Made by a program: the position numbers and the translations under genes. A stretch of 61,014 nucleotides of DNA, counting the filler, from Sphacelaria rigidula (Eukaryota), in the NCBI GenBank assembly GCA_964200075.2. It is 7 parts of 7 records of this genome, joined end to end, with 100 filler letters (N's around TTAATTAATTAA, not from the genome) between each part and the next. Parts side by side here need not be neighbours in the genome. Positions count along the whole stretch, not along the records: positions 43,655 to 52,284 come from CAXNAA020010551.1; 6 more parts are not named here. One strand, written 5' to 3'. Positions 17,083-56,170 of this stretch are shown here, in pieces. Every line of letters begins with the position of its first letter. The first letter of the stretch is position 1. The notes under the pieces are model-generated. The model did no database searches and was not told where the DNA came from. It saw nothing but the letters and a program-made list of their open reading frames with translations.

Positions 17083-17111
17083 TACATTTCCAAACAAGAA
17101 TTATTATTTGT

Positions 17112-17256
17112 GCGACTCGCCAAACACATCATGGTGCTTCGCGCTTGGTGATCGCGAGCCTGATCCGGCGAGAGCAAGGCGTCCTCCGTCCCGGCTTTGA
17201 GTGACTGGATGCGAGGTCAATGGTCTTATGATTACGGCATACAAAATCATGATTAC

Positions 17257-17295
<39 letters not shown>
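17112..17295 (+). mobile_element. 5'-truncated copy of C-tailed SINE-like family B
   Basis: CTCCGTCCCGGCTTTG..GGATGCGAGGTCAATGGTC..ATCATGATTACA followed by a long C-run from 17258; homologous to copies at 38129 and 40947. Confidence 0.8.
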
Positions 17296-17296
<1 letters not shown>

Positions 17297-17462
17297 ACCT
17301 CCTCCCTTCCTCCCCCCCCCCCACGGCCCACCAGCACTCACCTCAACCCCCAACAAACCCAANNNNNNNNNNNNNNNNNNNNNNNNNNNNNNNNNNNNNN
17401 NNNNNNTTAATTAATTAANNNNNNNNNNNNNNNNNNNNNNNNNNNNNNNNNNNNNNNNNNNN

Positions 17463-30634: not shown

Positions 30635-30690
30635 CGATGTGAGCGATTCTTTTTCTGGTATCGGAGCATCTTTTTCTGTGATATATTCGA

Positions 30691-33173: not shown

Positions 33174-33720
33174 ACGGGCTGATGCGCAGGACAGTGCAAA
33201 GGTGCAACTGTATATCTGGCAAGCGAAGATGCGTTGTAAGAGCCATAACAGTGATATTCAGGATCGGTTTTGAAAACGAAGATCGGTGTTTCGATTTTTT
33301 ATTTTTCTGCAATGCGTTACTCACAAAAAAGCCGCCTGCGGAGCTAAAAATATACGTTGTGTCTGTTCTACGCATTCGCTGTTTGTACTCTGCTCTCTGC
33401 TGCTATGCTCCTGCTCGTGCTTATCCCGTACATGGTTGACCTCTACCCGAGACCTCTTACGCATTCTCCGTGGTTGGCCTGCCGTACCGTCAGAAAAATG
33501 AAACTCTCTCATCTTGCGAGCTAGAGGGTTGACGATTTTGCTTCCTTCTGTTTCCCTCGATTTTTTACGTAAGGTTTCTGCCCTGATCAGACGAGGGGTC
33601 TTCTCTTGGGCGCCTTCACGGGGTGTACTTTTTAGCAAACTCTACATGGCTCTGCATAAGGCGGCAATCCGCTGTCTCGTGTGTGTTCTTGTACCTGTAT
33701 GGTGCGTACTCACAACGGAC

Positions 33721-34773
33721 CTATTCTTTCGTTTTATCGCTCAACTGCTTGTCGTTGGATGTACTCTTATCGTTACTGCATTTGAAGCGTACTTTTTTCA
33801 ACTCTCCCCCTGATCTATTCGTGCTCCTGTCTCTGCTAGCAGACCGTTTCTTCGCTCTCCCTCTCTCTCCTTTGATCGCTTTTGACTGCGACTGACGATC
33901 CGTAAGGATTGCGCCATGATCGGCTATCATTTCCGCTAGCTGTGGACGTGGGGAATTTACAGTTGCGGCCGAGACATGGGAAGTGTCTCCCGTTTGGTTT
34001 GACCATGTGCGAAGATTATTTTGTTCGTGGTTTTTCGCTCGTGCTATCGCAGTTTGGAAGTCGAGCGTACTATCTATTCTCACCATTTCAACTCTGATAT
34101 GGGGTTTGAGCCCGGTCTCAAATGCTGCTCTTGTGATCACGTCTATTATGAAGCGAAGCGTGTCGTGGCCAGGGAATTTCACCCGCAAGGCCTCGGTCAC
34201 GAATTTGTCCATCGAAGTCGTACACTCCAGTGCATAGTCGTCTACGTTCTGATCTTATTTCTTTTTCAGATCGGCTATCGCACGGGCTAACAGTGCTAGT
34301 TGGTTTGGTGGAGAGAAGCGATGAGTGTAGGCCACGACCCATTCTGTCCATGTTTTCGGGGCGATGGGTGCGGTATCTTCTCCTCTCGATTTGAGGTCCT
34401 CCAGTACAGCGAGTGGGCGCCACTCTGCTTTTCCGCTGCCGAGAGGGGTGTATAGCGTTTCTGCTGACCCTCTGAGGATAAGTGGTAAGTGGTTTATGGC
34501 GTGTCGTTGTACTGTGGATTCTGTGCAATCGTCAGGGGCATGAATCCTAACTCGATTGAGAAACGCATCAAGAATTTCTGGCACGTCCTCAATCCGTTTT
34601 CCTTCTAGAATTAAGGTTGATGGAAGATCCGATTGTTTCATCGAGAATGTTTGAGTTCTCATGGTGCTACTATGGCTTGTAGGTGGCGGAGTCAGCACTG
34701 ACTTAGACAGAGCCTCTATCTTGTGGCTGTTTTCTTGTACGTTAGTGAGGCTTGTTGGCGGATCTAACGTCAA
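33721..34773 (-). pseudogene. gag: gag (element 2), interrupted
   Basis: ORFs 34255..34773 and 33721..34212 upstream of pol; TWTEWVVAYTHRF and AFETGLKPHIR resemble retrotransposon capsid motifs. Confidence 0.75.
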
Positions 34774-36540
34774 AGTCCCTGAGCTCTCTGTGGATTGGAT
34801 CGGCGTAGTGTTGACACTTTCTAGNNNNNNNNNNNNNNNNNNNNNNNNNNNNNNNNNNNNNNNNNNNNTTAATTAATTAANNNNNNNNNNNNNNNNNNNN
34901 NNNNNNNNNNNNNNNNNNNNNNNNCCGTTTCGACGTCTCTACATTTGCCTTGCCCGCGTGTTCATTTCTTCTTCGATTTCCTCGTCGAACGCCGTGCTTG
35001 TTTCTGATGTTCCTAGTTTACGGAGGGACGGGGGGGGAGCTTTCCACAGGTTGTGACAGACCACAACAGAACAGAAAAATGTATGTATTTACTCTTACAT
35101 ATGCCGGCGTGGGTTTACATTTTACATGTCCTAGAACAATACGCTGTGTTCTGTCCGCTTACACAGCACGATAAAGCTTTTCTTACTTGGCTTCCCATGA
35201 AGGTTGCAAGTGTTCGCCAAGGACGTCTACAGCACCGTGACGCCGCACGTAATTCTGTCACGTATGAAACACCCGTAACATAATACAGTACGGCGGGATT
35301 TCACATGTCGTGACGGTACGTATTTCGTCTTTAGAACTCAAGTATCGAGATCTTGTGCAGAAAGCGCGAAACACCCAGTGCGATAAAGTGGCGTGTTGGC
35401 TATTGCAGAGACTACAAGAACGTCGTCGGAAATTCATGCTTACACGTGAAATGGGCTTGAACGTGGCTTCTTCACCCGCCATACTTGGAATACTTCCTCC
35501 TTTCAATTTTTTATTTCCCATATTTTCTTTTCTTGAAGAGTTTCGTTTCGGAAGTGTTTCCGTTCTATTCACTTGGGTACGTATATCCAATGACCACGGC
35601 TGAAGTCGTAGCGGATCACTCCGGGTGCAACAATCGACAAATCAACCGATTCATCAATGGTCACTAGAAGCAGCAATCCCCCTACAGTCGTTTTTTGCTG
35701 TCATTGCGGCAAACTGAAGATGTACCGGGACAGAATATGCTGAATTAAACTAGCGGGCGAAGCCCGCATCTCAAGCCAAACCTCCCACACAGAGATTAGG
35801 GTAACCCAAACTAAATTGAAAGCAGCGCGACTATGGCCGAGCGTTCAAACTCAGCACTGGCCCAAAATTAAAGACCTCTCCACAATCAGACGGAGGACTG
35901 AAACATGGGATATGTCCTGTTTCGTTACTTTACCGCAGCAGAAACACTCAAGCCCTCTCGCATGTGTTGGAGCTTCCACTGTCTGTTCTGTTGTCGTGTA
36001 CTCACGCATTGCGAACACGGTTTGGATTGCATGGTCTGCGATTTTGTCGTTGTGTTCGTCTCTGCAGAAAACAACGTTGGTCGGCACGCAGTGCTGGCTG
36101 CACACTGATGAAAACTTCATGGGTGTGTTGACGGTTTCGTCTCCGGTGAGACGAACAACGCGCTGTCCGTTGCTGCGACACTCCAGCTGGTGCCGTGCGT
36201 CGGGCGCCTGTACTGTACCGTACTGCTGTATTGTGTTCAGTGTACAATACTGTAATATCTATGATATTGTATTCGGCTGAAACGCGCTACGAGTTAGACC
36301 GCACGAACACTTGGTTTTGGACTACTCCCCTGGCGATTCCCAAGCGAAATGGAGCGATCTGATTGGTAGTTACCCAGCGAAACTTTCCCGCTCCAAATGC
36401 AGTCTGCTAAAATGCGACCTCCACTTCCAGGTCCCGTTCAAACAGACATGAAACTGATAGCGAAGGGGTATAACCGCGGTGAACGGCCAAGAGATGGCCA
36501 GGTTCGCGACCTTCGGTAGATGGCGTCACGAACATCATTC

Positions 36541-37074
36541 CAAGGTTGCGTTCTGTAGGGTACGGTTTTCTGTAAACCCGGGGCATTTTCCCGGGTATTT
36601 ACCGTACCCGACACTTTCATACCGGTACCCAACAGTTCTGTAAACTCTGTCAGACTTTCATACCCTTACCCGATAGTTCTGTTAGTTTTGTAAGCATCCC
36701 GTACCGTTACCGGGGGCACAGGTCTGCTCTTGATAAGATACCTTGCTGCGGGCACGGTTTTCTGTGCAGACTCCATACCCTGCCCGACCGTTTCCGTGAC
36801 TTTTGCACGCCCCCCCATACCCTTACCCGACAGCTCTGTGAGTTCTGTACATAATGTATGCCCGTACCGGGAGCGCGGGAATGCCCTAAAAAATAACCGA
36901 TTGCCGGTGCGGTTTTCTGTAAGCTTTCCATACCATACCCGACAAGTTCTGTAATTTCTGGAAGGCTTTATAACCGGTACCCGACAGTTTATTTTTGTGT
37001 GAGACTTTCGTACCGGTACCCGATATTTCTGTAAGTTCTGTAAGGAATCCCATACTCTACAGAACACAATCTTG
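36541..37074. mobile_element. MITE with CAAG termini (hAT-like) filled with GTACCCG/TTCTGTAAG subterminal repeats; related copies at ~60142-60400 and ~60700-60830
   Basis: TIR CAAGGTTGCGTTCTGTAGGGTA / TACTCTACAGAACACAATCTTG; ATCATTC occurs in both flanks (imperfect 8-9 bp TSD). Confidence 0.78.
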
Positions 37075-37343
37075 CAATCATTCCGAGTCAAGGGGAACCG
37101 TGGAACGAACGGGAGCAGCGTGGTAGACACCCACTATACTCCTCTAGCCCCTTACCAGAAGCTAAAACTGCGGAGAACACAAGCCCCTACACAAAAAGCA
37201 CGCTATTAAATAAAAACAGTATCGTGTGCAGGTACACAGCACACCGCCACAAGTACTTACCAACACCACGGTAACAGAGCTGGCGCCACCTTAGCACAAC
37301 AACAAACACTCATCAACAACCAAACAAATGACTTAATACCCAC

Positions 37344-37750
37344 CTGAACTCTCACAGTCTCCGGCCCCGTGGGCTCCGACGGTGGCACTAGCCCAGGGCA
37401 ATACACCCTGCCTACGCCGTCCCCATCACCACCGCTTCCCGCGTTTCCGGCGTCCGAAGATTGATCTTTACCGCCGGGTGTACCCTGAGACAAGGAAAGT
37501 GCGATCGCTCGAGCAACATCACTATCGTCATGTTCCATTGTGCGCGCCACTGTCGTCCCCGCACTGCTGTTCCCCCCTGCACCCTCTTCCATGCTCGCGG
37601 CTAGGGCCAACGCCAACTGTTCATCCTCTGTTGATCTTGAACCGGCTCCAGTTGCGCCGACACTTGGCCCGCCGCCGTCCAATCGATTGCCTGGGCCGGA
37701 GTTAAGCCAAACGTCTGTCGCTGCTGTCGACGGCTTGCCCGTTGTGCCTC
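37344..37750 (-). CDS. ATXN3: Ataxin-3 homolog, exon with two ubiquitin-interacting motifs
   Basis: gcag|GA..TTCAG|gtggg; phase 1 in, phase 0 out; UIMs TEDEQLALALAASM and DDSDVARAIALSLS; ends VPPSEPTGPETVRVQ. Confidence 0.9.
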
Positions 37751-38128
37751 CTGCGGCCGTAGGGTCCCCAAAACGTAAACCGTGCAAAAAAGCAGGCGCG
37801 GGGAAAATCAACAAAACCTCTTGAAGAATCAACGAGGGACGTATCACGTATCACATCAATTCTTTGCAGTTCTCGTATGACAGTTTTCCAAGCTTTGTAG
37901 CTTCAACAGCACGTACACAAGCGTGTGCTTTTCTACATTGCACCCAGTGACCCCATATGTCGGGCAACACTTCACCCACCCCGCCGTAACATGGGATGGC
38001 CCCACAACGACTACGCCCTGGCTTAGAATGGCACACTTGTACCACTACCAAAAATGCCAGCGCACTGAATGTTCTGTACAGTAATGTTCTGTTGCGTACT
38101 AGGTATGAGACATATTAAGGGGGGGAGG

Positions 38129-38594
38129 GTACTCATGATCTTGTATGCCATAGACTGTCGACCTCGAATTTCTACAAAGCCGGGACGGAGCACGCCGGTG
38201 TTTCGCCGGACCAGGCTCGCAGTCAATCACCAAGGAAGAATCGCTGTGATGTGTGCGGCGAGTCGCATGAAGGATGACGCAAATCCTGCTAACATTGTTC
38301 GGCCCGAAGCGTACTGATAATCTTGCATTTGGATGGCAGCTTCCAATGAGTTGCTTCATTTTGTGATATCGCCACTTCTAGAGACAGGGCCACGGCTTAC
38401 ACACCGCCTCATAGGTGTCTCACCATAAAAACACTACGTGGTATGACTATCCCCTTTGCGCGTAATCAAGCTTCTCCCACCCCTCACAAAATGATCTAGC
38501 CATCAATAGATCACCATCATGATTTTCCTGGTCGCGTAGCTTATGCAGTGAGTGGCGTGTTTAACAGGGTCACTGCCAACAGAAGCCAACTCCG
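38129..38594 (-). mobile_element. Apparently full-length C-tailed SINE-like family B copy in an ATXN3 intron
   Basis: 3' end ..AAGATCATGAGTAC+C-run; flanks TAAGGGGGGG (38116) and TAGGGGGGG (38595) look like a TSD; collinear with the 40947-41452 copy. Confidence 0.8.
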
Positions 38595-38943
38595 TAGGGG
38601 GGGCGTTTGTGGGGGGACGGGGGGATCGATAACGGACCAAACATCGCAGCAACGCTTGAGCGTGCAATGGTCAACGGCCAGAGACAGACGCTAAAATCCC
38701 GTCGTGCAACCCTCCATGCCAGCCACTGCCGCACTCCAACACAGCAATTATACTTGGGATGCAAGTCGACGGAATGAGGGAGGGCTCATCCAATGCTCGA
38801 CTGCAAAGAAGCCAATCAAGTGCCGCAAGAGAGATGGATTGATCACAGGGGACTACGCACCCACCCCGAGAAGGGGAAGGGAAGGGGAGCGGTTAAACTC
38901 CAGGTGGCGACAAAGAGAGAGAGGTCGTACCGGTACCACATAC

Positions 38944-39120
38944 CTTTGCCTTGGGCAACTTCCAACAAGTCCTTGACGCGATACCAGCAGTCGCGAGCAC
39001 CCTCTCCGGGAGATTTGCGGGCTGCTGGGGGTAGCTGTCCCCCTCGAACCACAAAAACGGAGTAGCCGTCAGCTTGAAGTTGGTGCAACGTGGCTTCCAG
39101 GGCAAAAGTCGTTATCCGCG
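38944..39120 (-). CDS. ATXN3: Ataxin-3 homolog, exon with the Josephin C-terminus
   Basis: cag|CG..AAAG|gtatgt; phase 1 matches the previous exon giving DYP-TRITTFALEATLHQLQADGYSVFVVRGGQLP (ataxin-3 QLQxxGYSIFVVxG motif). Confidence 0.92.
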
Positions 39121-40946
39121 CTGCTCATCGTCGACGCCGATGATGGCCAATGGCACACATACATCCGGCAGATGAAGAGCAACATCGGCAGAGGGAGACG
39201 GGAAAGAGATATCACTGATCGGCGAAAATGGTTGGTATTCAATCAATCGAAGAGACCTTTGTGGAAACACTCGTCAACTACTACACTTTGAACCGACATT
39301 TCTTTTCCAGAGCTGCAGAAGTCGTTGTACGGGTGAACGGGGGTCCCGCCGTGATCATGAACGAGAACGCATGTATCAAAGCTTTCTCCAAGCCAATCTG
39401 GAATTTTCGGCAGTACATACCCTACGTCCCCTGGAGTGCTTATGTAGGTACTCAAAATATGAAAGTCCATGGCACACCAGAGTACGTGCACTCCTCAGGC
39501 ACCTGTGAGGAAAGTAAGCACAAAAATCAAGAGTCGACGGACTGCATACTGTACGAGTACTGACACAACGCTCGGCCATGAAGTGCAGGGCAGAAAGTAC
39601 CCGAAGTAGAGAGATGAGTCTCTGATCTGATCCCTTGAGGTCAACGAATGGCTCGTCCCGAGGAGGGTGGGAGCTCTATTACCGTCGATCGATTGATCTG
39701 ATTGCTTGGTTGGATGAGTGGTTGATTGTCCGTCGCACATTAACCCTTTTAGTAGTGGCAATGGAGGAGCGTGGATTTCGAGGTCCTGTTTTTTTAACGA
39801 CATATGGTTGAGTATTTCCAGCTTTTACGCAAAACTACTAGCCCGACCCGTGTTTTTCAGACCCGCATAAAAATGTGCCCCAGTGCCGCACATGACACCG
39901 TATAGTATATACTCCCTCTGGTCGGGAATGTAAGCTCGCTTAGAGAAAACTGTGAATATCAGGGGCCCATGAAAGAGTTTCCCCGAAGTTTTGTTCATTA
40001 GTTTCCTTATGACTCGGAGAAACGCTGGAAACCGAGTATTTTTCATGAAAACCTAACATCGAACTACTCATACAGCCTGGAGGAACAGATACTAAAAATA
40101 AAATCGGAAAACCTCCGGTTGAACGGGTCCCGGTCAAAAACTTTCGGAAACTTGTTCACGGTGGTTCTCCTAGCGTTAGGGATAATTGCGCAATACCGAG
40201 ATGTCTGGGAGGCGACCATTACAGCAGTCAGTCGACCCAGAAGAAGATAGGCACTCTAGGGGGTGTTACCTGGCGTCAATAACTCCGGGGATGAAATTAT
40301 GCCTTGCCCGCACCCATTTTTTTTGTTGTCGAAAATCACGGACCCATCAGTCATTCAGAGAACACTAAGTGGTCCCCAGCCAGAAAACGCCAGAAAGCGG
40401 TCCTGTTGGAGTTATCCCAGACGAGTTTATATTTCTACCAAATTGATTCGAGCTTATATTCCCGACCAGACGAAGTAGAATGTAGACAGGTGGTGCTGAT
40501 TTTTGTTCGTATAGACTTCAGGCCCCTAACCGCTGATTTTGGCTGTGTGCGCAAACTTTAACAAAATCGACATGTTGCGTCCCTCACCGGACCAAACTAA
40601 TCTGACTGCACCGGGATGACATTTTTGGTGCGAGCATGACTTATGCTGTCAAACTGTTCTGCGGTCTTCCGCCGTGAAAATTGCTTCCGTAGGTCTTTTC
40701 GGTTCTCATCCTTTCTTCTTTGTCAGGGCTTGAAATAATGAGGCGTCTGGCCCGGGGACGGAAGGGGAGGGTTCCCAAAGGGTGACATGATCCCCGATGG
40801 ATGTGACCTACTGATGTAGTCATGTATGCATGCCGTGGTCATTGTCCACAATATGAACGTACCCAAGGTAAACAACGGACACGGAAATGCTCGCTAAAGA
40901 AAAAGAAAAGTGTGTGTGTCAATGTGTGGGAGGGGATGGGGGGGGG

Positions 40947-41452
40947 TGTACTCTTGATCATGCAGTCATAAGACCCTTGACCTCGTATCCCTACAATGCC
41001 AGGACGGAGCACGCCGGGTTCCCGCCGGGTTCCCGGCGAACCAGGCTCGCACTCAATCACCAAGAACGAAGCGCCGTGGTGTGTTCGGCGAGTCGCATGA
41101 ACGGTGACGCACATCCTGCTAAGATTGTTCGGCCCGAAGCCTACTGATTATCTTGCATTTGAATGAAAGCCTCCAATGAGTTGTCTTCTTCTCTGGTATC
41201 GCCACTTCCTGAGACAGCCACGGCTTATACACTGTCTCATGGGTGCCTCACCATTTCAACACTGCGTGGTACGATCATCCCCACTGCGCGGAGTTGAGGT
41301 TCTCCCACCCCGCGCAACATAAGCTAGCTCGACTACCATCATGGTTACCGCAAAAAAACGCAAGCGCGCAAAAAACACCCGGTAAACTGGTTGCCTAGCT
41401 TCCGCAGTGAGTGGCGTCTTTTGCAGCGACATCGCCAACCGACACCAACCCC
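40947..41452 (-). mobile_element. Apparently full-length C-tailed SINE-like family B copy in an ATXN3 intron
   Basis: 5' end GGGGTTGGTGTCGGTTGGCG coincides with the 5' end of the 38129 copy; 3' end ATCAAGAGTACA+C-run. Confidence 0.8.
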
Positions 41453-41661
41453 ATCATGAGTCCGCCCCCACAAAGGCAAGAAATTTAAGGAGCAATGTAA
41501 AAAATAAAAACCGAAAAAAAGGAATCAGGAAAAGAAAAAGAACGGAACGGAATAAAATGGAATAGAGAAAATAGTAATGAAAATAAAGTCAAAACCAGAA
41601 GCAAAAATGATAAAAAAATAAAACTCACTAGACATAATTGTACCCAAAAGAGGCGCCTCAC

Positions 41662-41768
41662 TTGGATAGTCCAGCATGGAGTTGAGATCCCAGTACGTGC
41701 CCCCTACGGAGCGAATCGCGATCCAGTGAGCGTGTCTATTCAGGACGAACGCTCCCTCCCGCTCGTAC
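41662..41768 (-). CDS. ATXN3: Ataxin-3 homolog, Josephin domain exon carrying the catalytic His and Asn
   Basis: cag|G..CCAA|gtgag; YEREGAFVLNRHAHWIAIRSVGGTYWDLNSMLDYP matches the Josephin pattern FxxNxxxHWxxxRxxGxxWxxLNS. Confidence 0.92.
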
Positions 41769-42059
41769 CTGCCCAAGGTGCCACGTTCCAGGCCATGTAC
41801 AAAAAAGGGTACAAATCAGTTTTTTCATCACTCCATGCAACGGATAAGAGCCTGGCATGGGATACGGCAGGTGGTGGCGTTATACAGCGCATATGGTACC
41901 CCCGGCCACATGTAACACAACAACATACTTCAAATCCCTCGTCCCACAAGTTAGAGTCTTTGGCTTCACAAGTGGCCTTCGCCCCAACGGCATGTGTGTA
42001 CGACATACGAGTTGGTAGCGCAAGACATTTTCCGCGGAAGCCATGTGGCAGAGGCCGGT

Positions 42060-42286
42060 CATTTCTTTGTTTTTTCTTGATTCATTTATTCTCTCTTCAT
42101 GTCTTTAGTCCACTATGTTGTTCAGTTCTATATTTTCTGTTTCTTACTTCTTCTACAGCGAGTGCTCCAGTCTTGTTTCGTTTCGGGTACGTCCATCACC
42201 TGGATAATGACCACGACTGGATCATGACTCCTGGCGGGGGAGGCGGGTCAGTTGAAGTGCGACAATCAATCAAATCAGTCAAATCG
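42060..42286 (+). mobile_element. 3' end of a retroposon family with (AATC)-type tail; other copies ~35500-35655, ~58600-58841, ~59360-59561
   Basis: T-rich segment, shared core GGGTACG..ATC..TGACCAC(G)GCTG, ending GACAATCAATCAAATC. Confidence 0.65.
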
Positions 42287-43129
42287 TTTGGGAAAAAATA
42301 AAGGTAGGAATCGGAAGTCGATGAGAAGCCACGAGAAAAAAAAACGAGGTTTATTTTTGGTTCTATATTTGGGGCAAGAACGACCGACTTTGTGAATATT
42401 TTCGACATACCTTTCTAGGTTGTTCTCGAGACTCAGGTTCCATCGATGCGGAGGGCGACTACCTTCTGAGGGAGGAGAAAAAACTCGCTTTGTAGCCCCC
42501 GCCAGAGGGACGATATATGGCCATTTTCAGGCGGACTGTTTCTTTTCCCATCATTCGGTCGCAACATGAAACGGATGAGGATAAAAAGAAATGGTTCCAA
42601 TCCCAAAAAGCGAAACAAAACGATAGAAAACGCCTTAATCGAGCATGGTTGAGGGCCCTTTTAAACCCAAAGTTATCGGACGGACGTATATATCATGCAG
42701 TTAATACTCCGCATAAACATAGACCCTATCTGCTCTGCTCAGGGTTCTGGAGCTGTGACAGGTAGCCAATCACCCGCTTTTGGGTACTGGCCCGCAATGG
42801 AAGTTGTCTTCGGGGGTCGCCGTCGGTGGGCTTTTTTCTACTGAAAAATACGTAAATTGGAGCTGTCACTGTTAATTATCCGGCCGCGAAGCAATCCATT
42901 TGATCTCGCGTGTGCATGGCAGTGCACCACTGTGGGAGTGAAATGTATGAATCCAAAACTTTGAACGATATCCGGAGTTTCTTCGCGTGTGCGTGCACTG
43001 TACTATTACATATTGTCACCACACTCGACAACGGGATAAGGAAGTTATGTGTGCTTTTCCGAATAAACTCTCGTCAATCACGGACACCTCAACACATACA
43101 AACCCGGTGAAGCTGCACAATAAAGTGTT

Positions 43130-43451
43130 TCTTATAGTAGGGGAAGTTCCGGTTTCTGCAGAAGAGGAGAAAACAGGATGTGATATGAGAAAGCTTGGTA
43201 CACTAGACGATAGCGACGAAACGGCCGTTATACTAAGAGATAGATGGCCGCAGACGGCGGAACAGGAAAGGGATAAGATAAGTAAGAGGCTCTTGTGGAA
43301 TGTATGGGTGTACTCATGTATGGGGGGAAAGTCATGAGCGTGTAAATGTTGGCGGTGTCTCCATCACGAGAAGGGACGATGCTTCGTCTAGAAAGGGATG
43401 CGTGATCGTGATAAATGGTCAAACGCCTAAGGCAAACGGCAAATGAGTACG

Positions 43452-43482
<31 letters not shown>

Positions 43483-43554
43483 ACCCCCCCCCCCCCGCCG
43501 CCCCACCACCCCCCGACCACCACAAACCACACCCCCACCCCCCCCACCCCCCCC
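43130..43554 (+). mobile_element. LINE 3' end (family A) with poly(C) tail
   Basis: Encodes IVGE..TAVILRDRWPQTAEQERDKISKRLLWNVW (ORF2 C-terminus-like); ends AAATGAGTACG then C-run from 43452 to the contig end. Confidence 0.8.
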
Positions 43555-43725
43555 NNNNNNNNNNNNNNNNNNNNNNNNNNNNNNNNNNNNNNNNNNNNTT
43601 AATTAATTAANNNNNNNNNNNNNNNNNNNNNNNNNNNNNNNNNNNNNNNNNNNNCCTGCAGTTTGTTGTTTTGTTTTTTTGCTGCTCGCCCCTCCGAGGG
43701 GGCCGGCGGGGGGCGCCCGGCGGGG

Positions 43726-43758
<33 letters not shown>

Positions 43759-44724
43759 GTCGCGGCGTCACTCTCACGTACTCCCCCGGTGATTCATAGT
43801 GCGAAGCGGTGAGAGCATGAGTTGGCGAACATAACAGCACAATTCGACGAGATTCGACGAGAGTTACAGGAGTGCGGATCCCATTGGTAGATTGGTTGTC
43901 GAACATGGCCTATTCCATCACGACTCCTGCGTTGTCATGACATACACGAAGCGGAGGTGACGAACGGCAACACTCCCTACCAGAAGGAAACTCGAAAAAG
44001 GGGACATGTATCTGAATTCTCGATAATATAACGAAGGGCCATATATCGGGGTAGGTATCGGTCGATCCTTGAGACGACGGACTCGAGTCGAGGAGGGGGA
44101 GGGAGGGGGGGGGAGGTGTACTTATGATCATGCATGCCATAATTATAAGATCATTGACCCCGCATCCCTACAAATAAGTGGGGGGCGGGGGCGGGGGATT
44201 GAAGTGCATCACTTGTGAGGAAAATGTAGTGATGCGCGTGGTTGGTTACGATCAGGGCGTGTATAATTTTGACAGCGAAACTAACTCGCACACAACTGCA
44301 GGGCATGAAACAGAGAACTTATCGTCGCAACGTATAATATATTAATTTTAGTATGTATATATTGTAGATATTTCGGGTTGCATGTACTTGGTAAATAATA
44401 TCAACCATGAGCGACAATGACCGTGGGAAAAAAATATGTTACTTTCTAAGGTGACATGTCGTCCGGTCCGCCCTATGGCGTCCGATGCGAAAAATGTCAA
44501 GTCGAACCTATTTCACCAATTCTGTTTCCCAAAAAGACGCAGAAGTGAGTCGGCTCGCCGTGTATCCTCGTGCGTTTATCTACTGGCAGAGCTCGTTCCC
44601 AAGGCCACCCTAGCCGTCGTGAAACCTACCGCTGTTCCCCTGCCAACGGGCCCGCCCCCAACAAGTGAAGCAGACGAGGTGAGGGCCAGTTCTAGCGGGA
44701 ATGTTTGTTGCCTGCAAATATCGC

Positions 44725-45216
44725 AGTTTGTGGGGTTGTCTCATGATCTTGCATGCCGTAGTCATACGACCATTGACCTCGCATCTCTACAAAGCCGGGA
44801 CGGAGCACGGCGGGTTTTTGCCGGACCAGGCAATTTGTGTGTGTGTGGGGGGGGTGTGTGGTACTCATTTGTTGCTTGCCTTGGTCGTTTGACCATTGAC
44901 CACGCATCCCTCTCGAGACGGAGCACCGTTTCTACTCCTAATAGAGACGCCTCCAACATTCTGGCGCTCATTACGTTTTTTCCACACATTGCACAAAAAC
45001 GTTCTACACATCTTATCCCCGTCCTGTTTCGCCGTCTGTGGCCACCATCTATCTCCTAGTATAACCATCGTTTTCTTGCTGTTGTATGATGCGTCGAACG
45101 ATTTCATGCCACCTTCGTTCACGTCCCGCATTTCCCCCTCTAATTTGTGGGCGGGGGGTGTACTCATGATCATGCATGCCATAGTCATGACACCATTGAA
45201 ATTTGTGTGTGGGGGG
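44725..45216 (-). mobile_element. Stack of three C-tailed retroposon fragments (B ~44738-44831, A 44861-45141, B ~45160-45199)
   Basis: Family A part encodes ILGDRWWPQTAKQDGDKMCRTFLCNVWKKRNER..GCVVNGQTTKASNK*; fragments separated by repeats of A(A/G)TTTGTG..GGGG. Confidence 0.82.
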
Positions 45217-45601
45217 ATTACACTTGGTTTAGTACAGCATTTGTAATTTTGGCGCGGAAAATTGGTGATTTGTGGATATAGCATGTGCTGGAGCAGAGAC
45301 GCGAGCTAGGTGAAGTGAAGACGTTGCTGCTGGAGAATTCAGACCCGGTGACCCCAATATCAGGACGAAACAGTCATCGGAAAACTCGGGGTTATATTGG
45401 TCCTCAACACAAAAGTGAAGAAAAAGTGGCCCGGTCATCAATTGATTTCGACGCACACCTGCATCATGTTTGGCTCGAGTCTCACAAATGTTGGTTTCAG
45501 CAGCCGAGCAATACTGCATGTGTTTGTCACAACGCTGGACACGTTCTTTATAATATGTTGGTACGAGCTGGGCCAGCCGAGAAGCGAATTTGTAGTTTGC
45601 A

Positions 45602-45878
45602 GGCTCAATCACCGGCCAATATTTAAAGTTGGACCCTGAATTTTGGTATTGACAATGAAAAGGGCATAATAAAAACAAATACCAGTGCACGCAAGTTTTT
45701 TTTTCATGAGTTAAGGACAATGATCAGTTTTCAGGTATCGGTCAAATGTATCAGTAAAATGCCCTCAACTCATGAAAAAAACCCCTTGTGTGCACTGGAA
45801 TTTGTTTCTATCATGCCCTATTCGTTATCCATACCAAATTTCAGGGTCCAACTCTCAATGTTGGCCGTGCAATGAGCC
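45602..45878. repeat. Inverted repeat (~120-bp arms)
   Basis: GGCTCAATCACCGGCCAATATTTAAAGTTGGACCCTGAATTTTGGTAT vs ATACCAAATTTCAGGGTCCAACTCTCAATGTTGGCCGTGCAATGAGCC. Confidence 0.82.
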
Positions 45879-48800
45879 GTTCAGTGACGGGGTCAGAAGA
45901 AATTCGGAACAGTATTTTACAGACCACTTACCGGCCCACGTTTAGTGTTTTGTGTATTGAAACTTTTTGTGGGCCGTGGCTAGGGCATTATTGATGAAAC
46001 AAAATGGGTCAGGTCGAATTTTTATTTTTTCACTGGTTTAGGGCGTTTTAGTATGGAAACGACCACTTTTTACGAGAACGCCCGAACCTTCCCCAAAAAA
46101 TGAATAAATCGAGGGCCCATTTTTTTTTAATTCAGCATACCTGTGTGGTTCTTTATCCTGAGTTTCAACTTACAATGCTAAAAACTGAGCTAGAAACAGG
46201 AGATGAGGCCCCAGAGCAGGGTTCATTTCTCCTCAAAACTGCCCCGAAAACCCGAAGAAAATTGAAAAAGCTGTTATTTCAAGCTTCATTATGCACTAGC
46301 GGTTCTCCGTACGAACTTCCATAGCATAACTCTCAAAAACTCAGACGCGATATCCAGATTCAGTTCATCTAGTACCTCTGCTCGTCAGGTACTGATTTTA
46401 GTATAGAAGCTTATATGCGCCATATCTCGAGATAGATCACGAAATAGGTGAAGGTGGGTATCTATCGTCTCCCCGTACTCCAGGGAATGTCCACACCAAA
46501 ATTCGTCGCCATCCGCTGAATGCATCGATCGGGGGTTCCATAGAGATTGTAGTATGGACGCTATCTCCGTTGGATATAGGAATTACTAGACATGTGGTAT
46601 AATCAACGAGAAAATATGGGTCCAAACTCTTGAGCAGATGGGCACCTTCTCCTTGGTTAGGCGATTAATACAATGTGCGGATCATGGCCCAAGTCGTCCG
46701 TGTCGACGAGATATTGCTTTGAGGGCTTAAATCAGTGTCTAGACTGGCTCAGGTCGTACACAAATTAGGTTAATTTCCAACTTCGCTCTATTTTCTTTGA
46801 TGTGTGTCGTAACCTCGGCCTGAGTGTTGTTATGACCTCTTTTTTTATATGTAGCCGGGCCGGGTCTGTGGGCATCGACTCCAAACGGCATTATCACAGT
46901 CAGTGCCCCACGCCAACATTGCATGGCTGTTGCAATCATTGGGATTTCCCCTACGTGTTAACGGTCGAGCTGGTTAGTTCATCAACGCTCTGATCTAGGC
47001 GGACGCTGTGCGTTTGATCTCTGACAGTAGCACAGTCATGGGTAGGAATGGGGACCCTAACGACCAAAAATCGACACAAGATTCAAAATATAAGATGACG
47101 CGGAGGAATAATGATCACGTCAGTAGGTGGTCGGACCTGTGCCGAGGCCCTCACGAACAGAACACGTGCTTCATCACCTATTCACTTGGTCTAGTATAGG
47201 GAACCTGTAGCACTGGGGATCGCTCGGTTCTCGACACAGGAAGCAAACCGGTCCATGGCACTTGACAGCCCGCCGCATACGCACAAGATCTAGGGGACCT
47301 AGTTTGATCATTTGCTGGCGTCGCGTCAGCGACCCGAAAATCCCCTCCCAAAGCGGAAAACACCTTATTTCAGTACATTTAGGTTATTTGCGAGTCAACA
47401 TCACGCTCAAACGCGAAGAACAAACTAGGCGACGTAGCTTGGGTGTGTGGGAAGCGCACGCAAGAAACCGCAGTCCAATCCCCCGCTTCGTTGTCGAGTT
47501 GTAAGCGTTGCGCGATCGGCACTTTTGGGTTGAGGATCAGTAGCGTCTTTCGAGGTCGAAGATGGCAAATTGAAAAAACTCGGTGCGCATACTACGTTTC
47601 CTGTCTCAGGCAAGTCGTGACAACATGTACTTTAGTTGCGTTTTCCCAGGCGCTGCTTTGTTCTGTGCGGCTGCGCACAAAGGGCAATTTCGCCTTCCAA
47701 CGGCGAGTATCCTTTGAAGTGTCGAATTACAGAGGGAGAGTTGACAGAAGGAAGACAAAGCTGGCGGCTGCTTCATGACAGGGCTCCAGTGCAGAAGCCA
47801 AGGCGTCGAGAGCGATTTAAGTACGAGTATGTGCGTTACATCTGCTGGCGACCGCGGTCATGTACTTCCTCTGTCTCATAAGTCTGTGCCGTTATGTTTG
47901 TATGAGCCCTTAACGATGTCCGATTTGATTTTCGATTTTTTGGTTGCATTCGTTGGCGTTTTTTTAGCGAAAAACAATACTCCTTCTGCATAGTGGGTGC
48001 TTGACCCGTGCAGCCTCGCGACCGAGAAAAAATGGGTCGGTCAAAATATGGTCATTTTTCGCTTTTTTTCCCAGTAAAGCATAACAGACCCGGGAATCGC
48101 GAAAATCGTTAAAAAAATGTGAAAACCGCAAAATCACCACTGATTTGGATATCTCCGTGACGTTAACCTACGCATGCCCCATCTAACAATTTTTCAGCAT
48201 GTAATCNNNNNNNNNNAAAACGTCCAAAATCGGTCAACATTGATGTGTAAGTGGACCAAAAAGGGGAAGATTGGGGTACATTTTGACCTGATTTTAGTAT
48301 TGAAAACAAGTTTTTTTTTCTCTTCTTTTCTTGAGTCAGCTTCGTCTGCGCGTAATCTCTCTAACGAACCCAACTGTAGGATGATCGTCAGCGTTGAAAT
48401 ACCCAAATGATCAAACGAACATAACGGCACAGACTTATGAGACAGAGGAAGTATTTAGCAACTGTCTCTATATACTGTTCATAGTATCAGAATGAGATGC
48501 AAACTATGCGATGTTCGACAAGCTTCGTTATGGGTTGCGTGCTTTTTTTCTTGCGGCGAGCAAGCAGTGCGTGACGGATGGCATTTGACTTTGTGCCATG
48601 CCACAAGGTGCTGCTTCGTTCTTTACGGCTGTGCACAAAGGGCAACTTCGCCTTTGACCAGCGAGTACGCTTCATGTATTGAGTTGCAGAGAGCGAGGTC
48701 ACACATGAACTTCGGCTGTTGTGTCTGGGGGTTCCACCGGAGAAGCCAAGTCGCGAAGAGTGATTTTGATTTCAGACTGCGCATCATGTCTGCCTAGGTC

Positions 48801-49860
48801 CGCAGAGCCACGATGTTTCATGTGACTGCCTGGACATACTGAAAATAGGGGAAACTTGACGTTGAAGATGTTGATCTGGACAGAGAACCAGACCGTGCCC
48901 AAGCGACTGACAAAATGGGATTCCTTCCACTCATGCCATGACCCTGACCCCATGGGGCCCATGAGAAATTCACTCTCTAATCCCGCAGTCATGGCTGTGT
49001 GTAGGACATGCAGCGCGTAGCCAATCCGCACAGCGTGAACCTCTTGATCGTCATCATCATCAGGATCGTTCTCAGTAGTTTTCGCACGCGCAACGCTGCT
49101 GCTCATTATCTCCAAATTTCCGTACTTCTCGTTCTAGCACCATGTCAGGCACGCCTTTCACTGCAGTTACGTTGGTGTGTAGCGGCCATAACAGCTGCTG
49201 CTCGTGCTCTTGTGTTGTTATCTTCGTAATGACGGTAAACGTGGGGTGGCAGCTCGGGGGCGTGTGCTTCCCGACTGGTACAGACAGACAGAAGCATGGC
49301 ACTAGCTTGTTCGACAAGATTGTCCATCTACTGATGTGGAGCGAGCTTTCCCGAGGAACAAAATCACCTCAACACCGACCACTCCCAGGCTTGAATAAAT
49401 GTACTGGAAATAGGGTTGATTTCTTATGAGCCAAATCGTCATTCGTCCGTGACGCGTGTATTTTCCATTGATGTGATTCGTTGGATTACGGGCCACTTCT
49501 GACGCATGTAGCGTTAAGCTTGCACTTTCCATGAAAAAAGTACCCAAAATTGGCCCCCATTCCTACCCGTAACAGTATTTTTTTCGTTTTTTTCCATTGT
49601 CCGACACCGTGGGGAACGAGAGTTGACAAAAATTCAATCATCGTCTACGGGTGGTGGCGGGAGTGCAAGGCTCGGCAAAAACATGCAAGGCAACTTTTAC
49701 GAGGGAACATTGTTACTGAAAGCAGGAGTGTTACAAAAGTAGTATAGAGGATTGGAGGGACGTCAACAGGAAAAAATTACGAAATGGGCCTTAATTTCTA
49801 GGGTGTATATATATATATATATATACGTATATACAAGCCGTGCGGGACCGGGGCGATAGC

Positions 49861-50100
49861 CCCGGTCCGGTCCGTCTTCTTGGAGGGTCGCGGTATTCAT
49901 GCCTTCCCAAGCTCCCGTGAGAAATGAATAGTGCGTCGGACGAGTCATCACTCGTCGAAATGAGTGCACTCGTGGGTGTTTTTTGAAAAGACAACGAGCA
50001 TGGCTCGTGTGCTCGCGTCATTATTTGCCGCCCCGGTCCCGTCCGTCTTCTTGGAGGGTCGCGGTATTCTTGTCTTGTCAAACCCTAGTGAGAAATGATT
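49861..50100. repeat. Direct repeat pair (~70 bp, ~170 bp apart) in a MITE-like segment beside (TA)n
   Basis: CCCGGTCC(G/C)GTCCGTCTTCTTGGAGGGTCGCGGTATTC..GTGAGAAATGA at 49861 and ~50032. Confidence 0.75.
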
Positions 50101-53100
50101 TTCGGTCACAGTTTCATGTTTATGGAAGAAATAAGACGTCTTACGAGGAAGAGTCCTGCAGTGCGGGTGGAACGATGAGGAAAAGTGCATAGGAAAAAGA
50201 TTGCAGCGGGACTGAGAAAGAGGGCAACGGTCGATAGGCCGTAGCATTCCCTCCGTTCGCACCGATGTCTCGAGGTTATTGTGTTTGTTTACAGAGAAGA
50301 CGATGTTGGTTGATGGAAGTGGGAAGGGATGATATTATGATGATGAGAACAATATTTACGAGACGAGGAATAGGACCGCGGGTATGAATGATGAGATGAC
50401 GTGCGAAGATTGCAGTAGAAGACGAAATCGACTCCCGGTGTAGAAAAAGTGTGTTTTTACGGCACCACCAGCAGGAAAAAAAATCCCGACCCAGGACTCG
50501 AACTCAACTCGGTGTGAAAAAACAGCGTTCTACTCACGCACTACGAGCAAAAATAGGTGGATACAGGGTTCGAACACCAACCAACTTCTTGCACGTCCAT
50601 GAGTGTACGTTTCACCTACAGAATACACGTGCATCATGTTCAAAGTGTCGCGCCGAATATCATCTTGTATAAATGCTCAACTTTGAATATATTGTCATGA
50701 TTCCAATATATTATATACAGTATAAGAAGCTCGAGTGCGGGCGTGTGCGGGCATTTTACACACATTCCAGTAAAATCACGTGGACGGGTTCGAACAATGG
50801 GTAAACAAATTGAACATGAAAAATACCGGAGCATTGGGTGCCCGACCAGTACCGAGTAGCCGCCCTGGTGCAGGATACAAAGATGAGTAAAAGTTCTCGC
50901 AGACGAGCTTAGTGCATGACCGCGACTATGTGCTGGCTCAGTGGACACATCGTGAGACATTGATCACATTTTTAGCTTGTTCCGTCAACGATTGAGGGCA
51001 AAATCAGAGTCTGCGTCCCGTTTTCTACTTGGGGTATACAGGACGGTTCAACCTTGTTTTGTACTGTACTGTCAAAAGAGCGACTTGGCCTCGGCAGGCA
51101 AGTAGAACGCTTGCTCTACATAGACGGCCTCCGAGGAAAACCTCGCGCTACAGGACGACTGTCCGAGAGGCATATACTCCTTTATATACCGAGGTGGTGA
51201 AGTCTCCAACATCCAAAGTCAGAGAAGACGGGGCCACGTGCCGATTTGTACATGGTCGGATGCGGTCGTCACGTTTGAAGATCACAACAACAGTACAGTA
51301 CAGTTGCGGCCGGGAGATGAGAAACGTCAATTTGGGGTTAAGGCTCGAAGTCTTATTTCGGGTGCGAACACCAGCATGAGTTGTGTTTTTTCTTATATTG
51401 AGTTTTCTTATATTATGCCGGCACAAAGGACTCAGGCCTAGCGGTCGCACAAAGCACAGCCCCAACCGGCATCGATCGCGCCGCATGAAACAGCCGTAAA
51501 TAAAAAACGTATGCCGCTCCCACAAAAAGTACAGTTTAGCAGGGGGGGGGGGGGGTGAGGGGGGGTCTAGATGTAGAAGGTACGTTTCTTAGTTCGGAAG
51601 GGGCTCCCCAGTCACCTAGTTTATTATTTCTTATGGCTATTTCAGGTATGTATCCGCGCTGTTTCTTATTTTTATGTTTCTTATCTTGTCGCCCAGTTTG
51701 AGGTGTGTTTCTCAGTCTATTTTTATTATTTTCCCTCAAAGGCCCAGCCTAATTTTCTCAAGTATATTTTTTTAAATTACGGGCCGCAACTGTAGTCTCA
51801 ATACTTGTAGTCGTCTTGACTGGATGATACTACTGTTCTTACTGTCTGTGTTTGACCATGACATCGGGGGAGTAGTCCATCTCGGTCATGTATACATTTT
51901 TGATGTGAAATTGATGCCGATTCAATCCATGACCTCTCGCTGCCTGCGTTTTGTCGGTACTGTACTATTTCTTACATCCCTTGCACCGGCAATCATTTGC
52001 GTCGGAAGCTTTCAACTCCAGACTGAGATTGACACAACGTCAGCATTCAGCGCCGTATTGCACTAGACTTCGTTTCACGCCCCTCCTTGTGTGCGAGAAG
52101 CTGTCGGTGCACCCACACACCGACAATCAGCACCGTGAACTCTCTGTTCTTTATGTCGTTATGTACTGTCTGTACTCCAGCATAGATAGATTGCTTGCAC
52201 CAAGTAATCATCTGCTTCGGAGATATTGCAGGACCACCGCAATCTCGCGTCCGTTCGAACGGTCGCGAACGCAGGTGTACCCCCNNNNNNNNNNNNNNNN
52301 NNNNNNNNNNNNNNNNNNNNNNNNNNNNTTAATTAATTAANNNNNNNNNNNNNNNNNNNNNNNNNNNNNNNNNNNNNNNNNNNNGTTATCGCACTATAAA
52401 GGACAAAAAACATATAGTGCGCGAGGTCGATATAGTGCGGGTCAAAAGCCGTGTCACATACCCGCACTATATAGGCCCCCCTACTGTATGGTGATTGGAA
52501 CCAGCGATGTTTCGTCCGGACGTTGAAAAGCTAAATGGCAAGATTGACATGAAGCCATCTCCTTCCTCGGACCGGGTCGGTACGAGTAGCGTCAAGAGAT
52601 CGACCCGCACCTGCTGCGCTACTTGCCTTGCGGTACATGATAGAAGTTTAGACTAGCATTCCTGCACCCCGTCGTCTCTTGTCGAATTATCTCTTGCTAT
52701 TCGCGTCCTGACGCTTTCACCGACGAAAACAAGACTCTGCTCTGAAATACCGCATCTGTGCAAACCGCGACCAATCGCCCCAGCTGGTCAGTGTGGTACA
52801 ATTCACAAAATCGAGTGGGGCGGCGTGGGCGTGTACAAAAGGGATCGCGGTCGACGATAGCGAGCTGCACAGCGCGTGAGCGAAATGAACCATGTCATCA
52901 GAACTCACGTGGTGCCCCTGTGCTCCGGTCGCTTATAATGTACTGTAAGCGACACTTCCGCATTGGCTGGACGATTACACCGAACGATGGCGAGTGTTTG
53001 CGTAGTAAAATTCTACCTTTCATTTGATGAAGGCATTGCTGTTTGAACATGTTGAGCATCATTTTCTCTCTCGCGTGCTGTACGTGTTCGCGTGGGGTTG

Positions 53101-54646: not shown

Positions 54647-55072
54647 CAACACGGGATTTTACAAATTGAGAATGGACCCTTTATTGTCGATGAAAACCCG
54701 TAGAAATAAAATATCCACACCAAATCTTCGAAGTAGGCTTTCATTTCTTCAACTGCTGGTAGCTGTTGACAACTACCACAAGCCATGAAAATTGGGATTT
54801 TGATAACCGAAATGTCGGGGTCCTAGGTGAAAAACCAAATCTGGGGGATATTAGGTGTCCGGTCGGACGCCAAATTTGTTTCTTGACCTAGGACCTCCGA
54901 TATTTCGGTTATCGAAATCCAAATTTGTTTGGCGTGTAGTAGTTGTCAATAGCTACCAGAAAGTGAAGAAATGGAAGCATACTTTGAAGATTTGGTGTGG
55001 ATACGAAGGTTTTAATTTCCAGGTTTTCATCCCAATAAAAGATCCATCCCCAATTCGTAAAATCCCGTGTTC
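54647..55072. mobile_element. Foldback MITE (~425 bp, ~195-bp arms), TA flanks
   Basis: TA|CAACACGGGATTTTACAAATTG ... CAATTCGTAAAATCCCGTGTTC|TA with arms matching throughout. Confidence 0.85.
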
Positions 55073-55843: not shown

Positions 55844-56170
55844 GCACCCCGGTGGTGTAGTGATCCGAGTGTCGCCATTAGGGTGGAAAGACCGAGGGTT
55901 CAAGTCCCGATGCGTTGGGGTTTTTCTCGGTAATGTCTGATTCCCGCCGTGGAAAGCGTGAGAACGTGAGTAAATAAAGTAGTCGACTGAGTTTGTTTGA
56001 CGGGAATTGATGCGGTGCGGGAGTGCTAATGGTCATGATCCAATCCGCGAGACTAAAACGTGAGGCGTGTACATACCGGGGGAGAGATGGGTTAATCACT
56101 CGAGACCACAGACTCCTCCCGAGGAAGGGGAGGGGTTCAAAGTGCGACAAATAAATAAAGAAAAGAAAAA
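55844..56170 (+). mobile_element. tRNA-derived SINE with A-rich tail; related 3' part at ~38825-38920
   Basis: A box TGGTGTAGTG, B box GGTTCAAGTCC, body ending GAGGAAGGGGAGGGGTTCAAAGTGCGAC-AAATAAATAAAGAAAAG. Confidence 0.7.

What the first reader, a model, noticed from the sequence alone, without database searches (positions are those of the whole stretch)
44725..45216. Serial insertion of three C-tailed elements at one G-run target with repeated TSD-like motif
Seen: AGTTTGTGGGG (44725), AATTTGTGTGTGTGTGGGGGGGG (44832), AATTTGTGGGCGGGGGG (45142) and AATTTGTGTGTGGGGGG (45200) separate three co-oriented, differently 5'-truncated elements from two families. G-runs also flank both sides of the copies at 38129-38594 and ~44118-44173. 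Inference: each insertion duplicates the target including its G-run and regenerates a site for the next, pointing to an endonuclease or priming preference for Gn/Cn, the GC mirror of the L1 TTTT/AA preference.
Basis: partly seen in the sequence, partly recalled or inferred. Interest (0 to 1): 0.7.

Follow-up and report, generated by a model that had tools for sequence, protein, structure and literature searches.

The report
Stacked C-tailed retrotransposons in brown alga
Three front-truncated copies of a known kind of brown-algal jumping gene with poly(C) tails (one LINE fragment and two copies of its non-coding passenger) sit at one site separated by copies of the same short G-rich target, a real and tidy example of repeated insertion rather than a new system.

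Summary
Four copies of one short motif (A[A/G]TTTG-T/GT-rich-G-run; 44725, 44832, 45142, 45200) bracket three co-oriented, 5'-truncated elements, and three of them start exactly at the truncation points. The middle element (44855-45141) is the last 91 codons plus stop of a single-ORF APE-endonuclease/RT LINE whose stop codon is followed by about 5 nt and a (C)n tail; its RT groups with Ectocarpus proteins. The outer two are a non-coding partner sharing the 3' ~60 nt. This fits the description of RTEX-1/2_Ec32 and RTEX-N1_Ec32 of Ectocarpus, already annotated with '(C)n 3'', 'C-rich' TSDs and 'can be present in tandem' (PMC12477816, supplement). Tandems with a TSD in the junction are known from Drosophila. 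G-runs also lie at the tail-free 5' junction in 4 of 6 scorable window sites (background 1.2%), so the target, not only the tail, is G-rich. Best reading: serial target-primed insertion, primed by a G-ended nick on the C tail (0.6). The open point is that all three junctions use the same base, which also fits repeated re-priming within one integration event (about 0.2). Endonuclease specificity is untested. Interest is low to moderate.

The parts
44725..44735 (+). Target copy T1 (leftmost TSD copy, one substitution, short G-run that may include tail remnant of A1)
   Evidence: junction present without differences in run contigs X4 and X5 spanning 44114-44769 (table 8)
44736..44831 (-). A1: 3' 96 nt of the non-coding partner family A (RTEX-N1-like), 5'-truncated
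   Evidence: 80% to copy 38132-38216 and to 17158-17262; other copies continue past the break
44832..44854 (+). Target copy T2 plus the (C)n tail of B (read as G-run on +), GT tract expanded
44855..45141 (-). B: 3' end of a single-ORF APE+RT LINE (last 91 codons, stop, few-nt 3' UTR), 5'-truncated; base 45142 fits both element and target (1-nt microhomology)
   Evidence: 87.6% nt over 282 and 79% aa over 92 positions to L035; 61% aa to the C-terminus of Ectocarpus protein P0049; continuation in run contigs (table 7)
45142..45158 (+). Target copy T3 plus tail of A2
45159..45199 (-). A2: 3' 41 nt of family A, 5'-truncated
   Evidence: 84-85% to 44107-44157 and 44732-44776; continuation in run contigs (table 7)
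45200..45216 (+). Target copy T4 (rightmost; followed by unique DNA, so its G6 is target-derived)
   Evidence: contigs of X4, X5 (no differences) and X1 (1 difference) start at 45170 and run into the unique flank (table 8)
38119..38603 (-). Supporting single A copy (~470 nt) with G7 on both sides
40938..41452 (-). Supporting single A copy (~506 nt); G9 tail, no G-run at its 5' junction (inverted 3' stub there)
44105..44197 (-). Supporting short A copy (44115-44173) between G-rich runs
34925..35037 (-). 5' junction of a longer truncated LINE copy cut by the contig start; G8 at 35030 just past the junction
43160..43482 (-). Diverged LINE 3' end (about 72%) with long C-run running to the contig end; no G-run at its apparent 5' junction
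17111..17294 (+). A copy with C37 tail; 5' part interrupted by an inverted-repeat element, junction not scorable

Best explanation
The stack is three target-primed insertions of a brown-algal RTE-X-type LINE system into one site. The LINE RNA and its non-coding partner end in (C)n. The APE endonuclease nicks the G-rich strand at the 3' side of a G-run, the freed G-ended DNA end pairs with the (C)n tail and primes cDNA synthesis (rightwards on the + strand), synthesis stops early, and the staggered second cut duplicates AATTTG(TG)nG6. Each duplication leaves a fresh copy of the same site, which was hit twice more. Later slippage changed the GT and G lengths. The (C)n tail is most likely templated: read-through into the C-run of the master copy's own downstream TSD, so target preference and tail renew each other. 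Shown: element identity, tail, four target copies, G-rich 5' junctions. Inferred: nick position, primer-tail pairing, separate events, templated tail. Identity of the elements alone: about 0.9.
For: LINE anatomy: one 1,426-aa stop-to-stop frame with Exo_endo_phos and RVT_1; endonuclease and RT motifs WNV, QES, NIY, GDFN, LD, DH, FADD present (their roles recalled from L1). Its RT forms a clade of support 1.0 with two Ectocarpus proteins among 114 rows. Tail: 5 of 5 outside LINE loci, found with queries that did not contain the tail, have a G/C-run of 7-13 at or within 3 nt of the 3' end. In four runs 302-475 contigs leave the reference at 44740 with a poly-G consensus (table 7; agreement 0.53-0.56). 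Target: G>=6 within 25 nt of the tail-free 5' junction at 4 of 6 scorable independent sites against 727 of 60,177 windows (binomial 3e-7; a seventh site dropped as unscorable). The motif is locus-specific and is not in the run-wide loose-end consensus. Literature: RTEX-1/2_Ec32 '(C)n 3'', TSD 'C-rich', RTEX-N1 'can be present in tandem'; jockey, R1 and P-element dimers with a TSD in the junction and distinct 5' truncations are read as multiple insertion.
Against: All three 5' junctions fall on the same target base, which independent events need not give. Two of six scorable sites have no G-run at the 5' junction (41453, ~43160), and single copies show little non-G duplicated sequence. A2 is closer to A1 (37 of 39 aligned columns, gapped) than to four other A copies (30/34 to 33/41), which leans slightly to a common source or event. 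No displayed contig bridges the two inner junctions and no empty-site allele was among the joints displayed (15 shown, 1,342 not). Endonuclease preference is not tested.
Confidence: 0.6

Rival explanations
1. One integration event with repeated re-priming. After copying the first RNA, the RT jumps onto the 3' overhang of the target and copies it, which re-creates a G-ended 3'-OH. That end primes a second and then a third C-tailed RNA before ligation. Order A1, B, A2; one pair of cuts.
For: Explains without extra assumptions why all three junctions start at the same base. Jumping onto the genomic 3' overhang and copying it is part of a published L1 model (PMC2831318 passages). A2 is nearest to A1 among A copies. 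Interrupted runs such as G5-CG-G5 and TG repeats next to tails (38597-38624, 44180-44197, 44855-44860, L022) resemble repeated initiation on the first bases of the RNA (inference).
Against: Needs three RNAs of two families at one lesion. Drosophila dimers of the same anatomy were interpreted as separate insertions. A sequence-guided second cut at AATT would give the same boundary in separate events. No direct test was possible.
Confidence: 0.22
2. G-richness comes from priming at existing breaks or G-rich structures, or from insertion into older copies' tails, with no endonuclease preference; the stack is then reuse of a good priming site.
For: Single-copy flanks share mostly G; 2 of 6 sites lack a G-run at the 5' junction; G-runs in this genome are largely element-derived.
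Against: The stack has a non-G duplicated part (AATTTG) with exact boundaries, as staggered cleavage gives; the endonuclease motifs are intact in L035 and L094.
Confidence: 0.08
3. The stack arose by DNA-level events: partial tandem duplication of A1 with its flank, or recombination between alleles that each had one insertion at this site.
For: A1 and A2 are the most similar pair of A copies over 41 nt.
Against: The elements are from two families with three different truncation points, each followed exactly by the motif; shared homology at the motif is only 11-17 nt; A1 and A2 still differ by 2 substitutions and 3 gap positions or 5 substitutions and 1 gap.
Confidence: 0.06
4. Misassembly of very high-copy repeats.
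For: Inner junctions are not bridged by any displayed contig; the tool notes skipped repeats at 44830-44864; 51,914-104,931 contigs per run map to the stretch.
Against: Both outer junctions occur in contigs of X4, X5 and X1 (X1 is another study and differs at 1-2 letters; right junction has 30 letters on the short side, one under the tool's bar). The inner junctions carry the same locus-specific motif, which chimeric joining would not supply.
Confidence: 0.04

Closest known systems
RTEX-1_Ec32 / RTEX-2_Ec32 (RTE-X LINEs of Ectocarpus sp. 7; PMC12477816, Supplementary Material 3)
   Same: Single EN-RT ORF; (C)n 3' end; C-rich TSD; 5.5-5.9 kb there against about 5.0-5.2 kb held in L035 and L094 (5' ends may be incomplete); nearest named proteins are from Ectocarpus.
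   Different: No direct sequence comparison was possible (FASTA supplements unreadable, Fig. 1C not seen). Host species unnamed. The paper's passages and rows that I read give no mechanism and no mixed LINE/partner stack with four target copies.
RTEX-N1_Ec32 / RTEX-N2_Ec32 (non-autonomous partners; same source)
   Same: Non-coding; share the 3' ~60 nt with the LINE (83% there; 43/58 to 45/54 here); C-rich TSD; 'can be present in tandem'; 5' head of unknown origin (no convincing Rfam match here).
   Different: Longest copies here are 470-506 nt against 604-607 nt (N1) and 188 nt (N2); identity of the bodies untested.
Double-insertion tandems of non-LTR elements in Drosophila (jockey, DMRT1B, R1; 10.1101/158386)
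   Same: Tail-to-internal tandems with distinct 5' truncations and a TSD copy in the junction.
   Different: Mostly dimers of one family; here a trimer of a LINE and its partner on a G-run target.
Human L1/Alu target-primed reverse transcription (TTTT/AA nick, poly(A) tail; recalled)
   Same: APE nick frees a homopolymer end complementary to the RNA tail; TSD of about 11-17 nt; 5' truncation; microhomology at one junction.
   Different: G:C instead of T:A pairing; tail cannot come from poly(A) polymerase and is probably templated; single ORF; RT only distantly related to L1 ORF2p (E about 3e-22).

Membership tests
APE-type non-LTR retrotransposon (LINE) | ORF with APE endonuclease followed by non-LTR RT | tested here: met
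   Pfam PF03372 and PF00078 in L035 and L013; best PDB hits L1 ORF2p and R2; window B encodes the same C-terminus
APE-type non-LTR retrotransposon (LINE) | Fixed 3' end with simple-sequence tail, variable 5' truncation, no LTR or TIR | tested here: met
APE-type non-LTR retrotransposon (LINE) | Target-site duplications | tested here: met
   Met in the stack; weak or unclear for single copies
Ectocarpus RTEX-1/2-type LINE | Single EN-RT ORF | tested here: met
   One 1,426-aa frame in L035; no other long sense ORF in the contig
Ectocarpus RTEX-1/2-type LINE | (C)n 3' terminus (RTE has (CAA)n and CRE (CA)n in that library) | tested here: met
   5 of 5 outside loci; run loose ends
Ectocarpus RTEX-1/2-type LINE | C-rich TSD | tested here: met
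   4 of 6 scorable sites; small sample
Ectocarpus RTEX-1/2-type LINE | Sequence identity to the RTEX-1/2_Ec32 consensus | not testable with these tools
   FASTA supplements cannot be read; indirect: clade with Ectocarpus proteins P0003, P0008, C-terminus shared with P0049
RTE-X (RTEX) clade | RT groups with reference RTEX elements in a phylogeny | not testable with these tools
   No named RTEX reference sequences were returned by any tool; the tree holds unnamed and Ectocarpus rows only; clade label taken from PMC12477816 by matching description
RTEX-N1-type non-autonomous element | 3' ~60 nt shared with the LINE, non-coding body, C tail | tested here: met
RTEX-N1-type non-autonomous element | Length about 605 nt and body identity to RTEX-N1_Ec32 | tested here: inconclusive
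   Longest copies 470-506 nt; consensus unavailable
SINE in the strict sense | Pol III-derived head (tRNA, 5S, 7SL) | tested here: inconclusive
   No such Rfam match in 38000-46000 at E<=5, but the copies may lack the head; ARAGORN not run
Site-specific non-LTR elements (R1, R2, Tx1 type) | One defined multicopy target sequence shared by all insertions | tested here: not met
   Flanks differ apart from G-runs; AATTTGTGKG is confined to the stack

The most novel reading that the evidence does not exclude
A self-renewing priming loop: because the target ends in a G-run and the RNA in (C)n, copying the target overhang after each cDNA regenerates a primer, so one pair of cuts is filled with a chain RNA-TSD-RNA-TSD-RNA from different templates in a single event. 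Together with G:C-primed TPRT, for which my searches found no biochemical study, this would be an unrecognised route to mixed retroposon tandems and a LINE enzyme that writes at G-runs.
Probability: 0.2. Interest if true: 0.6.

Novelty: new member of a known kind. Interest (0 to 1): 0.24.

Why it matters
As it stands it is a clear single-locus illustration of features already listed for brown-algal RTE-X elements. Practical value: these C-tailed repeats are extremely abundant in this alga and break short-read assemblies at their G/C-runs (several contig ends in the window). If the endonuclease or the priming step proves G-specific, it would be a well-defined GC counterpart to L1 for studying how tail and target co-evolve without poly(A) polymerase. 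If the one-event model holds, TSD-separated tandems would no longer be safe evidence of separate insertions.

Tried and rejected
No genome is held for the window, so no genome-wide TSD logo or stack count. Pattern scan of metagenome contigs: 93 matches, of which 4 carry the element and 89 do not. Family A pattern: 0 in viral contigs and 0 in genome contigs. Protein scan: 0 relatives in viral contigs, 1 locus in genome contigs (L094; filed in a bacterial bin, presumably algal carry-over). None of the five outside loci gave a scorable TSD pair; I did not establish their 5' junctions. Single-sequence fold of the endonuclease domain failed (pLDDT 31) and was not used. Rfam on the window region and on three LINE loci gave nothing at gathering score. 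A DNA-transposon (TIR) reading of family A, prompted by the inverted stub at 41453-41469, was rejected: other copies are 5'-truncated and share the LINE's 3' end. A general extended target motif TTTGT..GGGG (6 of 7 window matches lie within about 100 nt of element ends) was not accepted: post hoc, three are the stack itself, one lies in low-complexity sequence at a contig end, and it is absent from the run-wide consensus. X6 has no cover at 45232-45507: no conclusion drawn. Joints 44920-44937 to 45153-45156 in many contigs hint at other tandems, but at 88% likeness and mostly under 31 letters a side, so not counted. Summed depth (millions against about 25-35) is not a copy number. Paper searches with no hit: 'non-LTR retrotransposon'+'poly-C tail'; tandem insertions/same target site/TSD/non-LTR; tandem Alu set; oligo-C/poly-G/target preference set. 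A report of triplicated TSDs in tandem Alus is recalled only and was not retrieved. The 'Sower' repeat of Ectocarpus (about 2.5 Mb) may equal RTEX-N1 (2.48 Mb) but this is my guess. Five look-ups of earlier scan findings gave nothing on this element.

Full report
Setting. The window is a string of ~8.6-kb contigs joined by N spacers; the finding lies in the contig 43655-52284. Runs holding the stretch are labelled algae or protist metagenome or a coded organism. Gypsy RT and integrase remnants occur elsewhere in the window. No genome is held. The host is inferred to be a brown alga from these labels and from the LINE's nearest named relatives; no host gene was tested.

Observation. The four motifs are exactly as reported. 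AATTTGTGKG occurs three times in the window, all in the stack. Each of the three right-hand copies begins at the base where homology of the preceding element to its family ends; at B the first A fits both element and target. The leftmost copy has one substitution and fewer GT and G. Chance of two further junctions opening with AATTTGTG is about 6e-10 to 3e-8 (post hoc motif). Contigs of X4 and X5 (one sample, possibly the source) span the left junction (44114-44769) and the right one (45170-45589) with no differences; X1, another study, has the same two junctions with 1-2 differences. The right junction has 30 letters on its short side, one under the tool's bar, and no displayed piece bridges the inner junctions (32 pieces shown of over 265,000). 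Misassembly is unlikely because the inner junctions carry the same locus-specific motif.

What the elements are. A scan with a pattern that excludes the tail gave 93 metagenome loci, 4 of which carry family B; a protein scan added L094. L035 holds one 1,426-aa frame with APE endonuclease and RT. Window B is its 3' end: 87.6% nt, 79% aa over 92 positions, reading to the same stop. After the stop come 5 nt and a C-run in L013, L022, L035 and L094, with an interrupted run in L069. The best named protein hit is from Ectocarpus (67%); the RT forms a clade of support 1.0 with two Ectocarpus proteins and two unnamed ones among 114 rows; an Ectocarpus protein ends in the same C-terminus as B (61%). 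Family A shows no long ORF, reaches 470-506 nt in the window, and shares the 3' ~60 nt with B (43/58 to 45/54 for pairs that aligned). In four runs, 302-475 contigs leave the reference at the A 3' end with a poly-G consensus, so the tail is genome-wide.

Tail or target. A G-run beside the 3' end can be tail. A G-run at the 5' junction cannot. Seven independent sites were examined; one (17111) was dropped because an inverted-repeat element replaces the junction. Four of the other six have G>=6 within 25 nt (38597, 44180, 35030, the stack); two do not (41453, ~43160). Background is 727 of 60,177 windows, binomial 3e-7 (thresholds chosen after inspection). So the targets are G-run-rich. Only the stack shows a clear non-G duplicated part.

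Mechanism. By analogy with L1 TPRT (recalled): a nick 3' of the G-run frees a G-ended primer that pairs with the (C)n tail; cDNA runs rightwards on +; the second cut falls 11-17 nt away, at AATT; the site is duplicated. The tail is probably templated by read-through into the C-run of the donor's own TSD (inference). Serial reuse of the regenerated site is the simplest account (0.6). The same-base 5' boundary is also what one would see if the RT copied the target overhang after each cDNA, as in a published L1 model (PMC2831318), and the new G-end primed another RNA (0.22). A2 being closest to A1 (37 of 39 aligned columns) leans slightly that way or to duplication. I could not date the three elements or find an empty or partial allele. 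Endonuclease specificity against primer pairing is unresolved; the fold attempt failed.

What is known. Dinatale et al. 2025 (PMC12477816; seen: abstract, section 5 part 1 of 2, section 15, search passages, the LINE rows of supplement file 1 and the RTEX rows of file 2; not seen: Fig. 1C and the FASTA supplements, which may hold more on termini) list RTEX-1_Ec32 'single EN-RT ORF; (C)n 3'', RTEX-2 '(C)n termini/TSD', TSD 'C-rich' for all six RTE-X rows, and RTEX-N1 of 604-607 bp with '60 bp 3' end 83%' to the LINEs that 'can be present in tandem'; RTEX-N1 is the most abundant family, over 6,000 copies. RTEX-1 is also reported in Saccharina (PMC4421812, passages). McGurk and Barbash (10.1101/158386, 12 of 16 passages; its supplements are closed) describe non-LTR tandems with distinct 5' truncations and a TSD in the junction as products of multiple insertion. 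PMC5753468 and PMC3145265 were seen as passages only. The system therefore works like L1/Alu TPRT with G:C in place of T:A and matches the Ectocarpus RTE-X description on every feature I could test; membership by sequence and by clade could not be tested. My searches found no paper on the biochemistry of C-tail priming or on re-priming chains; the library lacks most subscription journals, so this is weak evidence of absence.

Verdict. Real, correctly described, and largely explained: a new member of a known kind. Interest 0.24. The one-event re-priming reading (0.2) would deserve about 0.6 and can be tested with a long-read genome and population alleles.

Noticed in passing
L094:477-520 (sense); L035:~4733-4798: The LINE's 5' region carries a degenerate inverted copy of its own 3'-terminal ~50-70 nt. 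Best duplex in both elements (-64 kcal/mol against mean -22.5, sd 6.0 in L094; -41 against -23.0, sd 4.5 in L035); local score reached by 0 of 300 and 1 of 300 shuffles. Possible 5'-3' pairing of the RNA or an old inverted insertion; BLAST alone gives only E 0.95.
   Followed up: partly
window 41453-41469: An inverted 3'-terminal stub (12 nt plus C5) sits exactly at the 5' junction of the A copy 40947-41452: head-to-head double priming, or the natural 5' end of A.
   Followed up: partly
window 38597-38624, 44180-44197, 44855-44860; L022 tail: G-runs beside element ends are broken by CG or TG, the first bases that cDNA synthesis would add for B and A; could be stutter at initiation or ultra-short insertions.
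   Followed up: no
joints 44920-44937 to 45153-45156 and 44740 to 45149 (opposite strands); L094:5154-5200: Contigs from other loci suggest further tandem and tail-to-tail arrangements, with breaks clustered 60-80 nt from the 3' end.
   Followed up: no
window 15134-15394 / 16849-17109: Element with 261-nt inverted repeats (87%) that interrupts the A copy at 17111.
   Followed up: no
window 45602-45878; 11101-11487; 54712-55003: High-copy palindromic, MITE-like repeats; the first gives sub-threshold miRNA hits in Rfam.
   Followed up: no
window 17411-24336 and 29897-34254: Two broken Gypsy-type LTR retrotransposons; RT, RNase H and integrase domains confirmed for three frames.
   Followed up: partly
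window 1533-2329; 36611-37044 and 60232-60316: Diverged 41-bp tandem repeat arrays, the second shared between two contigs.
   Followed up: no
window 17258-17362, 43452-43554, 43700-43756: Contigs end or start in long G/C-rich low-complexity runs, two of them at element tails; part of this may be sequencing artefact.
   Followed up: no
window 37257-37850 (-): Host gene exon with ubiquitin-interaction motif.
   Followed up: no
window 51542-51565; 44043-44103 / 56073-56134: G14 run next to unrelated sequence, and a 62-nt repeat abutting the G-run at 44105; possibly other families.
   Followed up: no
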